Source of the DNA: Eledone cirrhosa
Taxonomy: Eukaryota
Assembly (NCBI GenBank): GCA_964016885.1
Contig: OZ024745.1
Span: 35,092,001-35,156,000 of the forward strand
Direction: 5' to 3'
DNA: 64,000 nt
A program made the position numbers and the translations under genes. The notes below the pieces were generated by a model. The model was given only the letters and a program-made list of their open reading frames with translations. It was not told the origin of the DNA and made no database searches. This document shows positions 4,971 through 43,152 of this stretch, piece by piece. Numbering within the stretch: position 1 is the stretch's first letter; every line of letters begins with the position of its first letter.

Positions 4971-5117
4971 TATAATATAATATATATATAATATAATATA
5001 TATATAATATAATATATTATATAATATAATATATATATAATATATATATATAATATATATATATATATAATATATATATATATATAATATATATATTTTA
5101 TAATATATATATATATA

Positions 5118-5732
5118 TTAAGAGAGTAAAACAAAGAAGCCTTCAATACATCAAAAGTCTTTATTAGCCGACAATGTTTCGTCCTATTAAGGACTCATCA
5201 GGGCAATTAAAACAACAAGAAGTAATATCGGCAGATACAAGCCGGAAGCTCCGGCTTGTATCTGCCGTATATAATGTATATTATATTATATTATATTATA
5301 TTATATTACATTGTATTATATATAATTCCTGCTCTATATAACCACCTTTGTTTAGCTCTAGGTTTTTTTTTGCTTTGGACTATATTTGTAATATGGTTCT
5401 TAATGTTATATACATCCTTAGTAATTTTTATTATATATTTTTATTATTTTTATTATATATTTTTGCAATACTTTAGTGTATGTACACTCCATATTCTTCG
5501 GAGCTTCCGGCTTGTATCTGCCGATATTACTTCTTGTTGTTTTAATTGCCCTGATGAGTCCTTAATAGGACGAAACATTGTCGGCTAATAAAGACTTTTG
5601 ATGTATTGAAGGCTTCTTTGTTTTACTCTCTTAATTTTTCGGCTCTGTTTAACTACATTGAGCTATACCTTTTACTGTCATTTCTATAATACGAAGAGGG
5701 TGTTTAACTCCAACACGCTCCAGTATTTTAAC

Positions 5733-9398: not shown

Positions 9399-9518
9399 GG
9401 AAACGGCTTGAGCTCCGCCGTCGGGGTCATACATTTGCCTATTACCCACTCTACTACCCTAAGTATTGAGTACTCTGGTGCGTTATAGTCCATCTGGTTC
9501 CTTACCACAAATCCTTCG

Positions 9519-9520
<2 letters not shown>
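9399..9520 (+). mobile_element. (TA)n-insert family A, single arm (other copies 19561-19680, 23354-23417, 42922-43152, variant 43979-44061)
   Basis: Shared GAAACGGCTTGAGCT...CATTTTCCTA|TTACCCACTCTACTACCC...CCTTCGTT, always flanked by (TA)n. Confidence 0.85.
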
Positions 9521-19560: not shown

Positions 19561-19562
<2 letters not shown>

Positions 19563-19680
19563 CGAAGGAAGTGTAGTAAAGAACCAGATGGACCATAATG
19601 CACCAGAGTACTCAATACTTAGGGTAGTAGAGTGGGTAATAGGAAAATGTTTAACCCCCATGGGGTTAAACATTTTCCTA
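19561..19680 (-). mobile_element. family A asymmetric palindrome
   Basis: 79-nt tail plus 19-bp arms TAGGAAAATGTTTAACCCC / GGGGTTAAACATTTTCCTA. Confidence 0.85.
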
Positions 19681-19702: not shown

Positions 19703-20609
19703 CGAGGGCAATCCCAAAAGTAAGGTCTCCAAAGCGATGGGGACGCAGAGAAACTGTTCGGACGGCTGTTGGCAACACTGTTGTGATTGGTGCTTCCTTC
19801 ACTCCCAAACAAGCATGCGCGCGCTTCGCTGGGATGCTCAATCTTGGCTTGGCAGCCGTTGAGAATAGAGCGCCTGTTGACCCCTACCGCCAAGTGCGAA
19901 GTTCGCGCAGTTATTCGGTTTTTGAACGCAAAAGGCGTTGAACCGATTGAAATTCATCGCCAATTGACGGAAGTGTATGGACAGTCGTGCATGGATACCA
20001 AAAACGTTCGCAAGTGGTGTAGAGAGTTTACAGCCGGTCGTACTGAAATTCACGACGAACAATGGAGCGGGAGACTGTTAATTTCCGACGAGACAGTCGC
20101 AAATGTTGAAGAAAACATGCGTAAAGATCGGCGGATCACTTTGGATGCTCTCTGCATTTTGGTTCCTGAAGTTTCTCGAAGCACCATCCACAGGGTTTTA
20201 ACGGAAAAATTGCGACTGTCTCGTCGGAAATTAACAGTCTCCCGCTCCATTGTTCGTCGTGAATTTCAGTACGACCGGCTGTAAACTCTCTACACCACTT
20301 GCGAACGTTTTTGGCATACATACACGACTGTCCATACACTTCCGTCAATTGGCGATGAATTTCAATCGGTTCAGCGCCTTTTGCGTTCAAAAACCGAATA
20401 ACTGCGCGAACTTCGCACTTGGCGGTAGGGGTCAACAGGCGCTCTATTCTCAACGGCTGCCAAGCCAAGATTGAGCATCCCAACGAAGCGCACGCATGCT
20501 TGTTTGGGAGTGAAGGAAGCACCAATCACAACAGTGTTGCCAACAGCTGTACGAACAGTTTCTCTGCGTCCCCATCGCTTTGGAGACCTTAGTTTTGGGA
20601 TTGCCCTCG
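19703..20609. mobile_element. palindromic mariner derivative (two 5' halves head-to-head)
   Basis: TA|CGAGGGCAATCCCAAAA terminus at both ends. Arms 19703-20102 / 20210-20609 encode the mariner N-terminal HTH EVRAVIRFLNAKG..EIHRQLTEVYG..VRKWCREF..GRT..DE..SGR; no DDD domain. Confidence 0.92.
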
Positions 20610-22359: not shown

Positions 22360-22616
22360 ACGAATAGATGTCCTCATCTTGTTTTGTTTTTAACACAACG
22401 TTTCGGCTGATGTACTCTCCAGCCTTCATCAGGTGTCCCAATGATGTTATTATTAACGTTTGTTCAGGTCACTGGGACACCTGATGAAGGCTGGAGAGTA
22501 CATCAGCCGAAACGTTGTGTTAACAACAAAACAAGATGAGGACATCTATCCGTCCAATGTATATAAAGTAAATAATTCCTCAAAAATATAGAACAGTCTC
22601 AAAAATATAGAACAGT
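22360..22616 (+). mobile_element. hammerhead-bearing asymmetric palindrome in (TA)n
   Basis: Arms 22360-22440 / 22473-22553, tail 22554-22616. Confidence 0.85.
22477..22520 (+). ncRNA. minimal type I hammerhead ribozyme (mirror copy on - strand ~22396-22436)
   Basis: ACAC-CTGATGA-a-GGCTG gagagtacat CAGCC-GAAA-CG-TT-GTGT. Confidence 0.8.
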
Positions 22617-23040: not shown

Positions 23041-23353
23041 TAACCGTTCTTCACGCACTATGATACTTACACAGTAACAGAAAGAATGACCTCTCTTCAA
23101 TCGAAACTCATCTTCGTTTAAAACTGTTTTATATTCAATGCAAAGGTACAAAGTAAAATACTTTCTTTTTCTAAACATATACCGATTGAGAGAATGGTGG
23201 AAAGATGCAGAGATGTAGAAATGTCAGCATAAATTAACGAGTAACAATTTTGCCGATCCTTATGAAAGAAAGGTTTTTATTTAATCGAAGAATTGCAAAG
23301 ACTGCTGTGCACCTGCCTAAAGACTTGGTGCAACAGCAGCAATATATATATAT

Positions 23354-23574
23354 AACGAAGGAAGTGTGGTAAGGAGATGGACCATAACGCACCAGAGTAC
23401 TCAAGACTTAGGGTAGTGACTACCTTGATTAAATCTTAACCATTTAACATCTCAGGGTATGTCATGTATCATTATATTTTGTCTGATGAGGACGTACTGT
23501 TGTACATCCGAATTATGTATAATAAAATGTAATTGATCAAAAGAACATCTATTTTATTAATATTTATATTCTTA
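23354..23574. mobile_element. chimeric insert: family A tail (-) fused to family B arm (+)
   Basis: 23354-23417 matches 19561-19628 (small deletion). 23421-23574 matches 36383-36535, including a hammerhead (CTGATGA at 23483; GAAA mutated to GAAT). Confidence 0.85.
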
Positions 23575-23725
23575 TATATATATATATATATATATTGTAA
23601 TTTCTTAACACTCTTGAATGATCTATATTGAGAAATTATTTTTTATTATAACATACTTAATATAGAACGCTCCTTTTCCTTTATCTCTTCTACAGAATCT
23701 CTTGACACACTACACCCACACACAG

Positions 23726-36120: not shown

Positions 36121-36706
<586 letters not shown>

Positions 36707-38012: not shown

Positions 38013-39048
38013 ATATTGTTATATTTGGGGAGGGTCATATTTGCGTAATATTGCCAGAATTAATAACAGAACACACTCACTGTTTGGTTGGTTTTCGCTT
38101 CTCGCTGTCTTTTATATATATATATCTGCGATCTAACTTATTCGGTCCTCAATGTTGCCATTGACTGACCGGCGGTCAAAAATAATACAGATACAATATA
38201 GACAAACACATATATATATAGTTTACATAAATCTTTCGTTGCACATCTGCAACATCGTCAGTGGTGTTATATTCATTGTTCCTCCTGTTGTGTTGTATGT
38301 CTACGCCATTTTTTTTTTTGTTCAGTCTGTCTATATATTTATTTATTTATTTGCTTGTTTGTTTATCTTATTTTATTTTGTCTTCTTTGCGCATGCGTTT
38401 GCGTGTGTGTATAGTGTTATGTGTGATGTGTGACTAGTGTGTATAGTGTTGTGTCTGCTGGGTGACTAGTGTGTGTTTATGTGCTTGTGTATGTATTTAT
38501 TTATCTTATTTTATTTAATTTAATTTACTTATTTATTTATACTTCTCTTAGGTCAGTGTTGTTTGTTTGGGTGTTGTTGTTGTTCCACTCATTCTTTCTG
38601 TTTAACACTATACACACACGCAAACGCATGCGCAAAGAAGACAAAATAAAATAAGATAAACAAACAAGCAAATAAATAAATAAATATATAGACAGACTGA
38701 ACAAAAAAAAAAAATGGCGTAGACATACAACACAACAGGAGGAACAATGAATATAACACCACTGACGATGTTGCAGATGTGCAACGAAAGATTTATGTAA
38801 ACTATATATATATGTGTTTGTCTATATTGTATCTGTATTATTTTTGACCGCCGGTCAGTCAATGGCAACATTGAGGACCGAATAAGTTAGATCGCAGATA
38901 TATATATATAAAAGACAGCGAGAAGCGAAAACCAACCAAACAGTGAGTGTGTTCTGTTATTAATTCTGGCAATATTACGCAAATATGACCCTCCCCAAAT
39001 ATAACAATATCTGTTTCGACACACGATTTCATATAAAAAACCTCGCAA

Positions 39049-41999: not shown

Positions 42000-42050
<51 letters not shown>

Positions 42051-42053
<3 letters not shown>

Positions 42054-42214
42054 ATAATAATAAATTTGAAGACTAAAATCCAAAGAGGGCTCGATAAGTA
42101 TATTTTAGTTTCAGAAGATCCCGTTAAGATCCCGTTAAGGGTGAAAGCAACGATTCTTTGCTTAAACTTTAATCTGTTATTTTAATAAATATATATATAT
42201 ATATATATATATAT

Positions 42215-42268
<54 letters not shown>

Positions 42269-42405
42269 ATAATAATAAATTTGAAGACTAAAATCCAAAG
42301 AGGGCTCGATAAGTATATTTTAGTTTCAGAAGATCCCGTTAAGATCCCGTTAAGGGTGAAAGCAACGATTCTTTGCTTAAACTTTAATCTGTTATTTTAA
42401 TAAAT
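42051..42405. mobile_element. two tandem family F inserts (period 215 bp); other F pieces 26812-26890, 29658-29683, 43844-43916, 52569-52870, 63185-63342
   Basis: Each copy is an inverted tail (GTAATAATAATAAATTTGAAGACT...) joined to a sense arm CAGAAGATCCCGTTAAGGGTGAAAGC...TTTTAATAAA. The uninterrupted order is seen at 63185-63342. Confidence 0.85.
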
Positions 42406-42429
42406 ATATATATATATATATATATATAT

Positions 42430-42492
<63 letters not shown>

Positions 42493-42699: not shown

Positions 42700-42889
42700 T
42701 TAATGTAGAAAGGCTTCTACAGGACAAAACTGTTTCATTCCGGAGAAATCACCAGGAGGCCTCTGATGATTTCTCCGGAATGAAACAGTTCTAGTCCTGT
42801 AGAAGCCTTTCTACATTAAATATTTATACTCTGATTTGTATTGAGTACCTTACTTACTGTGGTTACCCCCGATTTGACGTGGCATAAAC

Positions 42890-42921: not shown

Positions 42922-42923
<2 letters not shown>

Positions 42924-43148
42924 CGAAGGAGGTGTGGTAAGGAACCAGATGGACCATAACGCCTCAGAGTATTCAATACTTAGGGTAGTAGAGTGGGTAA
43001 TAGAAAAATGTTTGATCGCGACGGCAGAGCTCAAGCCCTTTCGTTTCGACGGCTATTTCTGGACTAAATTAGAATTTTCAAAATTTTAATTTAGTTCAGA
43101 AATAGCCGCCGAAACGGCTTGAGCTTTGCCGTCGGGGTCAAACATTTT

Positions 43149-43152
<4 letters not shown>
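42922..43152 (-). mobile_element. family A asymmetric palindrome
   Basis: 79-nt tail 42922-43000, arms ~43001-43070 / ~43087-43152. Confidence 0.85.

What the first reader, a model, noticed from the sequence alone, without database searches (positions are those of the whole stretch)
23354..23574. One insertion whose two arms come from different families (A tail + B hammerhead arm)
Seen: the left end is family A's E2 terminus, inverted. The right end is family B's E1 terminus. There is no (TA)n between them, and the junction GGTAGT-G-ACTACC is self-complementary. The E1+E2 rule holds even though the arms are unrelated. The B arm starts at the same TACCTTGA...TCAGGGTA stem as the copy at 36383. 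Inference: two different RNAs were copied in one integration event by shared machinery, with RT stopping or jumping at the hairpin base.
Basis: partly seen in the sequence, partly recalled or inferred. Interest (0 to 1): 0.75.

Follow-up and report, generated by a model that had tools for sequence, protein, structure and literature searches.

The report
Two Penelope stubs fused by microhomology
This 218-base insert really joins one arm from each of two different Penelope-type jumping genes, but similar mixed joins elsewhere in the genome mostly break the pairing rule of normal insertions and often keep a piece of a third arm, so it is likely the scar of two separate insertions fused by a DNA repair event rather than one insertion copied from two RNAs.

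Summary
Between two (TA)n runs, a 63-nt inverted end of family A is joined to a 154-nt sense end of family B that carries a minimal hammerhead. The junction occurs once in the 3.0-Gb genome. A and B are ends of two Penelope-like elements whose ORF ends have Hydra-clade motifs. The inference is weak. Same-family insertions pair E1 with E2 in 143 of 147 cases and their arms share subfamily variants (86 of 87), which points to one RNA source. Mixed direct joins pair E1 with E2 in only 3 of 8; 4 of 8 keep part of a third arm and 2 form a reciprocal arm swap (inversion). GGTAGT is shared by A and by B's own fold-back centre, which also occurs in pure B insertions, so it reads as a 6-nt microhomology. 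B arms pile up at ACTACC, often with an extra G: a likely capped RNA start, not a hairpin stall (the scan noted this before on other DNA of this genome). Best reading: two insertions fused (0.7); co-integration of two RNAs 0.2. Public contigs did not span the junction.

The parts
23343..23354 (.). left (TA)6 target run
   Evidence: sequence
23355..23417 (-). family A arm: last 67 nt of the element's tail up to the E2 end, inverted, with a private 4-nt deletion after 23375 and one substitution; lies wholly in the tail between E1 and E2
   Evidence: 1 mismatch in 61 aligned nt to nearest copies L154, L216
23412..23417 (.). GGTAGT: 6 nt that fit both the A arm and the inverted 5' tip of B (microhomology)
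   Evidence: shared words of A and B antisense; same centre in pure B insertions; 0 of 118 other A arms leave the consensus at this base
23418..23418 (+). G that is not in the B consensus at this place (consensus C); likely copy of the RNA cap, or the next base of an inverted B tip
23419..23572 (+). family B arm from the likely transcription start (A of TC-ACT) to the E1 end
   Evidence: 1 mismatch in 153 nt to nearest copies L006, L008
23421..23459 (+). predicted hairpin TACCTTGA...TCAGGGTA at the 5' end of the B RNA
   Evidence: whole arm z -1.56, so the fold alone is not above chance
23468..23537 (+). type I minimal hammerhead: stem I 23468-23482 with 23522-23537, core CTGATGA 23483-23489, stem II 23490-23509, GAA(T) 23510-23513, 2-bp stem III; predicted cut after 23521; A15.1 changed to U in this copy
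   Evidence: pairing read from the sequence; Rfam listed no hammerhead among the 150 best of 298 matches shown
23573..23594 (.). right (TA)11 target run
   Evidence: sequence
36180..36541 (.). comparison copy: normal B/B insertion (E2 arm inverted, E1 arm sense)
42923..43150 (.). comparison copy: normal A/A insertion (E2 arm inverted, E1 arm sense); others at 19562-19678 and a single A arm at 9400-9519

Best explanation
The insert joins the ends of two different Penelope-like retrotransposons and is likely the scar of two separate insertions into the same or neighbouring (TA)n runs that were fused by a microhomology join at GGTAGT. Steps: (1, shown in pattern) a normal insertion has two head-to-head arms ending at E1 and E2 that share subfamily variants; (2, inferred) both ends of a cut in (TA)n prime copying of one RNA, which often runs to the capped start; (3, shown) A and B insertions often sit side by side with only (TA)n between; (4, inferred) A was there first, B came next to it, and either during repair of B's break or at a later break in the B palindrome the inner part of A, the spacer and B's second arm were lost, the A stump annealing to B's inverted tip through GGTAGT; (5) E1+E2 at this locus is then a coin toss. 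The order A then B is a weak preference only.
For: Same-family pairs with both ends called: E1+E2 in 98 of 101 (A) and 45 of 46 (B); 29 further pairs had an end not called. Arms of one insertion agree in A subfamily in 86 of 87 and differ by 6.7% against 12.4% between insertions in A, 3.2% against 7.1% in B. Six genome-wide patterns gave 35 distinct A-B neighbours; 30 have a TA-type spacer or other sequence between, 5 are direct: window (E2+E1), L144 (E2+E2), L148 (E2+E2, 97 nt of a third, inverted B arm), L153 (E2+E2, 5-nt inverted B tip), L321 (E1+E2, 25 nt of a third A arm). With other families, picked by eye: L193 (third arm kept) and L189, where F4(E2)|A(E2) and F4(E1)|A(E1) lie 2 kb apart, the two A arms share a variant seen in 2 of 135 arms, and the layout is what an inversion between two insertion centres gives. 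The centre GGTAGTGACTAC occurs in 5 pure B loci and in 4 of 92 listed B arms that stop at this base (by eye), while 0 of 118 other A arms leave the consensus at this base. Palindrome centres are known break and exchange sites (PMC7999016, passages) and microhomology-mediated deletions disable many Penelope copies (PMC3846280, passages).
Against: No trace of the lost parts can be shown at this locus and no allele with both complete insertions was found. The B arm looks like a fresh full-length cDNA end, and the 6-nt match could also be made by snap-back synthesis on a nascent B cDNA and then anneal to a nascent A cDNA. L144 has no third-arm trace. Ages do not separate the arms (2 changes in 64 nt against 1 in 153, p 0.21; subfamily means 3.9% and 1.6% from small, search-biased sets). 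In sample S1 the flanks are identical to the window yet neither the junction nor the A arm's private deletion was seen, which would fit the whole insert being gained as one unit, but contigs are filtered. The mixed set is 8 cases from 7 loci, exact-motif searches keep only about 77% and 74% of arms, and arm agreement could be raised by gene conversion.
Confidence: 0.7

Rival explanations
1. One integration event: the two ends of one cut in (TA)n were extended on two different RNAs (A from its E2 site, B from its E1 site), by one dimeric enzyme or two neighbouring complexes, and the two cDNA ends were then joined.
For: Clean layout between two TA runs, E2+E1, both arms young. L144 is a clean A|B join. 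For LINE-1, opposite-orientation inserts from two transcripts are reported and read this way (PMC11702581, section 7). A Penelope protein cuts and extends both strands from two RNA sites and is predicted to be a dimer (PMC11167929, parts 1-2 of 4). L190 and L192 show foreign pieces at insertion centres, so jumps between templates happen. The L189 arm swap could also come from two concurrent insertions.
Against: Mixing within a family, which should be far easier, is at most rare (1 of 87 discordant, upper 95% limit 6%). Mixed joins do not keep the E1+E2 rule (3 of 8) and half keep a third arm. A and B proteins are only about 40% alike in the aligned C-terminal part to a third A-linked ORF (A and B were not compared directly over a full ORF). 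A blunt join would put the break at the one GGTAGT match by chance (about 1 in 130 positions).
Confidence: 0.2
2. One enzyme began on A RNA at E2, switched template to the 5' end of B RNA through the GGTAGT/ACUACC match, and was joined to an E1-primed B cDNA.
For: The 6-nt match is of the right polarity for pairing of an A cDNA end with the B RNA start. Short inverted tips after an internal skip occur in B (L007, L022).
Against: Copying to a capped end would add C on the top strand, and G is seen. It needs the same cross-family use of RNA that the subfamily test finds rare.
Confidence: 0.05
3. The junction is an assembly error.
For: No listed contig from runs X1, X2, X3 or X5, and no read of X8, crosses it; the left-flank contig of S1 goes on with 8 letters unlike the window after 23354.
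Against: Four other direct A-B joins and three with other families lie on chromosome-sized contigs; the join has a 6-nt microhomology and a known B centre; S1 may be another individual and its contigs are filtered.
Confidence: 0.05

Closest known systems
Insertion units of endonuclease-bearing Penelope-like elements, Hydra clade (Craig et al. 2021, PMC8557442: passages and section 11; Arkhipova et al. 2013, PMC3846280: passages; Frangieh et al. 2024, PMC11167929: parts 1-2 of 4)
   Same: Inverted 5'-truncated arm next to a sense arm, tail at one end only, (TA)n target, palindrome at the inverted junction, hammerhead in the repeat (B), Inr-like TCACT at the start (also named for Adineta Pen2a), two RT start sites that define the tail.
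   Different: The two arms come from two families. Tails here are about 80 nt (A) and 100 nt (B), not 30-40 nt. No canonical hammerhead core was found in the A end. PMC3846280 reports no cross-mobilisation between the two PLE types it compared.
Palindrome-mediated exchange (PATRR type; review PMC7999016, passages) and microhomology-mediated deletion between neighbouring repeats
   Same: Break at or near the centre of an AT-rich palindrome, join to another sequence, product no longer palindromic; L189 shows the reciprocal form.
   Different: The palindromes here are short (60-250 nt arms) and are made by the retrotransposon itself; breakage was not observed, only inferred from products.
LINE-1 insertions with two opposite cDNAs from two transcripts, and extra G at full-length 5' junctions (PMC11702581: passages and section 7)
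   Same: Same geometry as this insert; extra G read as the copied cap; microhomology joins and target-site deletions.
   Different: In LINE-1 one enzyme is known to use many RNAs in trans and the events were de novo. Here the genome-wide pattern favours one RNA per event, and no de novo event is available.

Membership tests
Penelope-like element, C-terminal endonuclease type (families A and B) | ORF ending in a GIY-YIG endonuclease upstream of the terminal repeat | tested here: met
   Translations upstream of A (L054/L095, L052/L096) and B (L093, L094) end in VY(Q/K)C...YIG and the downstream conserved motifs. Pfam gave GIY-YIG only for a neighbouring related ORF (E 4e-4, below cut-off) and nothing for the A and B pieces, so this rests on motifs and alignment.
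Penelope-like element, C-terminal endonuclease type (families A and B) | Reverse transcriptase in the same ORF | tested here: inconclusive
   A related 463-aa ORF in L095 (41-45% to the B and A pieces) has a YRDDGL motif and thumb region; no intact A or B ORF with RT was recovered.
Penelope-like element, C-terminal endonuclease type (families A and B) | Inverted truncated copy plus tail at one end; (TA)n target | tested here: met
   143 of 147 same-family pairs; 161 of 169 pairs with both ends called over all named families (families were defined from such pairs, so this figure is partly circular).
Hydra clade | CxCX5C linker before the endonuclease; no CCHH; CxxC and CxH near the end (PMC8557442 section 11) | tested here: met
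   CNCRNKTDC (B), CNCPDRSTC-type (A, one base change in the copies read), CALC/CNLC and CLH/CKH; one Cys only between VY and YIG.
Hydra clade | RWK and DKT motifs; placement in the RT tree | not tested
   No N-terminal half of the A or B ORF was obtained and no reference set was on hand.
Type I minimal hammerhead (PMC4209133, passages) | CUGANGA and GAAA cores, stems I and II, short palindromic stem III | tested here: met
   Met for family B (105 listed copies with both cores). This copy has GAAT, so it is predicted inactive. Not met for the A end (no CUGANGA in the 220 nt folded).
Type I minimal hammerhead (PMC4209133, passages) | Self-cleavage | not testable with these tools
   Needs an in vitro assay.
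Single-event insertion from two RNAs (LINE-1 type) | Both arms arise at one target cut: empty-site allele or target duplication, no third arm | tested here: inconclusive
   The (TA)n target hides any duplication; no spanning allele was obtained; a third-arm tip cannot be told from A's own last 6 nt.
Single-event insertion from two RNAs (LINE-1 type) | Mixed joins as a class follow the rule of single events (E1+E2) | tested here: not met
   3 of 8 against 143 of 147.

The most novel reading that the evidence does not exclude
Complexes of different Penelope families act together at one place: two RNAs are copied from the ends of one break, or of two breaks a few kilobases apart, and the cDNA ends are cross-joined, giving mixed inserts like this one and arm-swap inversions like L189. 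Penelope insertions would then be a direct source of small inversions and deletions, and mixed joins would reveal how the E1 and E2 start sites are chosen.
Probability: 0.2. Interest if true: 0.7.

Novelty: new member of a known kind. Interest (0 to 1): 0.4.

Why it matters
How Penelope-like elements make their two-armed insertions is open. Mixed-family joins are a natural test of whether the two arms come from one RNA or two. The test here points to one RNA per event (E1+E2 and shared variants hold within a family and fail across families), and it shows that the palindrome centres these elements leave, tens of thousands per genome (about 73,000 A and roughly 10,000 B insertions by sampling), are points where neighbouring DNA is deleted or inverted. 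The locus itself is most likely an inert scar.

Tried and rejected
Rfam scan of the window: only microsatellite-driven miRNA matches among the rows shown, no hammerhead. Pfam on four ORF pieces: one weak GIY-YIG hit. Runs: no RNA holder listed. Contigs and RAD reads did not span the junction; holes prove nothing. 'A-B junction is a consensus': rejected. 'RT stalls at the hairpin base': rejected as the main cause because a stall would fall at the 3' foot of the stem (about +41), while ends pile up 2 nt past its 5' foot with an extra G. 'A cDNAs stop naturally at this base': rejected. 'Fold-back of one cDNA makes the second arm': rejected for the family because second arms can consist of tail sequence absent from the first arm (for example L124, L291, L294). 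A reciprocal partner (A E1 joined cleanly to B E2) was sought genome-wide and in 3.5 kb further on each side of L144, L148, L153 and 10 kb on each side of the window: none found; L321 has these outer ends but keeps an A centre. Dating of the two arms: not significant. Same-orientation A-B joins without TA: none among 15 hits, although L148 has that form. Literature: five searches gave no paper on Penelope insertions with arms from two families or on a copied cap G in these elements; subscription journals are largely outside the library and no supplements were read.

Full report
What is there. The window is G000:C5:35092001-35156000 of a 3.0-Gb genome rich in (TA)n. At 23355-23417 lies the inverted outer end of family A, at 23418 a G, at 23419-23572 the sense end of family B, with (TA)6 before and (TA)11 after. 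The 19 bases across the junction occur once exactly in the genome; one hit with a mismatch is unrelated. A pattern of the A tail followed within 170 nt by the B end also gives only this locus.

What A and B are. Long copies lead upstream into ORF ends with a CxCX5C linker, a GIY-YIG-type endonuclease without CCHH, and CxxC and CxH motifs. These are the features given for the Hydra clade of Penelope-like elements (PMC8557442, section 11); the lead to that clade came from earlier scan notes. Pfam did not score the A and B pieces and I recovered no intact RT, so clade membership rests on motifs. B carries a type I minimal hammerhead (type described in PMC4209133, passages); this copy has GAAT for GAAA. 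No canonical core was found in the A end. Sampling of 123 fixed-step 10-kb stretches gave 30 A and 4 B insertions, about 73,000 and roughly 10,000 genome-wide.

The normal insertion. Among pairs of same-family arms with both outer ends called, 98 of 101 in A and 45 of 46 in B combine E1 with E2; 29 more pairs had an end not called. Many of these loci were fetched by targeted searches, but 40 of 43 bystander A pairs give the same result. The two arms of one insertion agree in subfamily in 86 of 87 A pairs, the exception resting on one site, and are about half as far apart as arms of different insertions. Two RT start sites on one RNA that define the tail, and extension of both target strands, are shown in vitro for another Penelope element (PMC11167929). 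I infer that both ends of one cut are primed on one RNA source; gene conversion between arms could add to the agreement.

Where arms begin. Of 1,729 B arms that cover the first 22 bases, 26 of the first 100 listed leave the consensus within 4 nt past GGTAG (by eye), so the start is a hot spot but not the rule. Of the first 100 rows of 650 arms that stop at ACTACC, 8 were continuing variants; 34 of the other 92 have an extra G in front (by eye; p 0.002 against the non-G background). A shows the same at AGTCC: 59 of 100 rows of 4,444 (by eye; p 1e-11). Both starts sit in Inr-like words (TCACT is named as such for an Adineta element, PMC3846280), and an extra G is read as the copied cap in LINE-1 (PMC11702581). 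RT meets the 3' foot of the TACCTTGA hairpin first, yet arms end past its 5' foot. A capped RNA start is the likely cause; no RNA data were available. Earlier scan notes reached the same reading on other DNA of this genome; I had noted it before looking.

The junction. GGTAGT is both the end of the A arm and the inverted tip of B. The centre GGTAGTGACTAC occurs in five pure B loci. Of 119 A arms passing this point, only the window copy leaves the consensus at this base, and it is the only place where the A antisense matches B's tip. The simplest reading is a 6-nt microhomology join between an A stump and an inverted B tip. The tip may be what is left of a full second B arm or a short snap-back product, as in L007 and L022.

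The class test. Six genome-wide patterns gave 35 distinct A-B neighbours. Thirty have (TA)n, a TA-like spacer or another repeat between them, among them single arms facing each other across four TA units (L147, L152, both E2+E2). Five are direct: the window (E2+E1), L144, L148 and L153 (all E2+E2) and L321 (E1+E2). L148 keeps 97 nt and L153 5 nt of an inverted third B arm; L321 keeps 25 nt of a third A arm. From 100 rows I picked joins of A with other families: L193 keeps a third arm, and L189 holds F4(E2)|A(E2) and F4(E1)|A(E1) 2 kb apart in the same orientation. Its two A arms share a variant found in 2 of 135 arms and differ at 2 of 56 positions, its two F4 arms at 7 of 100: two twin-armed insertions that swapped arms, as an inversion between their centres would do. 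In all, 3 of 8 mixed joins have E1+E2 against 143 of 147 (p 9e-6; A-B only 2 of 5, p 6e-4; no different from one half, p 0.73). The set is small, the two L189 joins are not independent, and exact motifs keep only about three quarters of arms.

Against my reading. Nothing at this locus proves a lost third arm. The arms cannot be told apart in age (p 0.21). L144 is a clean mixed join. LINE-1 makes opposite-orientation inserts from two transcripts in single events (PMC11702581, section 7). L190 and L192 carry foreign pieces at insertion centres. In sample S1 both flanks match the window without a difference, but no listed contig crosses the junction or holds the A arm's deletion, and the left contig goes on with 8 unlike letters: this fits a polymorphic insert, a longer TA run with filtered contigs, or an assembly error, and decides nothing.

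Verdict. Most likely (0.7) two separate insertions fused at a microhomology, during repair of the second insertion or at a later break in the palindrome (palindrome centres as break sites: PMC7999016, passages; microhomology deletions in Penelope copies: PMC3846280). A first and B second is a weak preference from subfamily divergence (3.9% against 1.6%). One event with two RNAs keeps 0.2, a template switch 0.05, an assembly error 0.05. Five literature searches found no report of mixed-family Penelope arms; papers seen only in part: 10.64898/2026.07.22.740005 (part 1 of 5), PMC13282606 and PMC9977147 (passages), none bearing on the junction. A scan look-up for such hybrids gave no matching note. 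The locus is an ordinary product of known processes; the value lies in the class test and in the L189 arm swap.

Noticed in passing
L189:2904-3348 and about 5035-5269 (G000:C1:55901501-55911500): Two mixed joins of family F4 and family A, E2|E2 and E1|E1, 2 kb apart: a reciprocal arm swap, likely an inversion with breakpoints at the centres of two insertions.
   Followed up: partly
L192:4570-5050: A twin-armed insertion of another hammerhead family has a 16-nt piece of the A start mirrored at its centre, with the same join on both arms and a threefold repeat on one side: possibly a chimeric RNA that starts at A's promoter.
   Followed up: no
L190:4740-5030: A/A insertion with about 150 nt of filler at the centre; by eye the filler reads antisense to a Penelope-type ORF start (recalled motif, not searched).
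   Followed up: no
L191:4800-5060: A hammerhead-bearing arm of another family cut short, then a 10-nt inverted A tip and an A E2 arm: another fusion that keeps a palindrome tip.
   Followed up: partly
L168:955-1357, L185:4660-5600, L187:4990-5700: Single arms complete to the start (two with the extra base) joined directly to a truncated LINE-like end, a tandem repeat or unique DNA, with no TA: one-ended insertions with target deletion.
   Followed up: partly
window 9400-9519 and loci: Unpaired A arms are more often E2 than E1 (26 against 9 among bystanders), which may mean that E2 is primed first; some have undetected partners.
   Followed up: partly
window 5119-5633, 22361-22552, 38017-39006, 42700-42819: Further inverted-arm inserts of other families, the first three with a CTGA(T/C)GA...GAAA hammerhead-like core.
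   Followed up: no
window 19703-20609: Element with 400-nt near-perfect terminal inverted repeats in a TA run directly beside an A/A insertion; looks like a deleted DNA transposon (not tested).
   Followed up: no
window 42003-42480: Exact 215-nt tandem duplication of a (TA)n run plus a short twin-arm insert.
   Followed up: no
L058:1499-1720 (-): The A end has a GAAAC-stem-GTC arrangement like the 3' half of a hammerhead but no CUGANGA upstream of it.
   Followed up: partly
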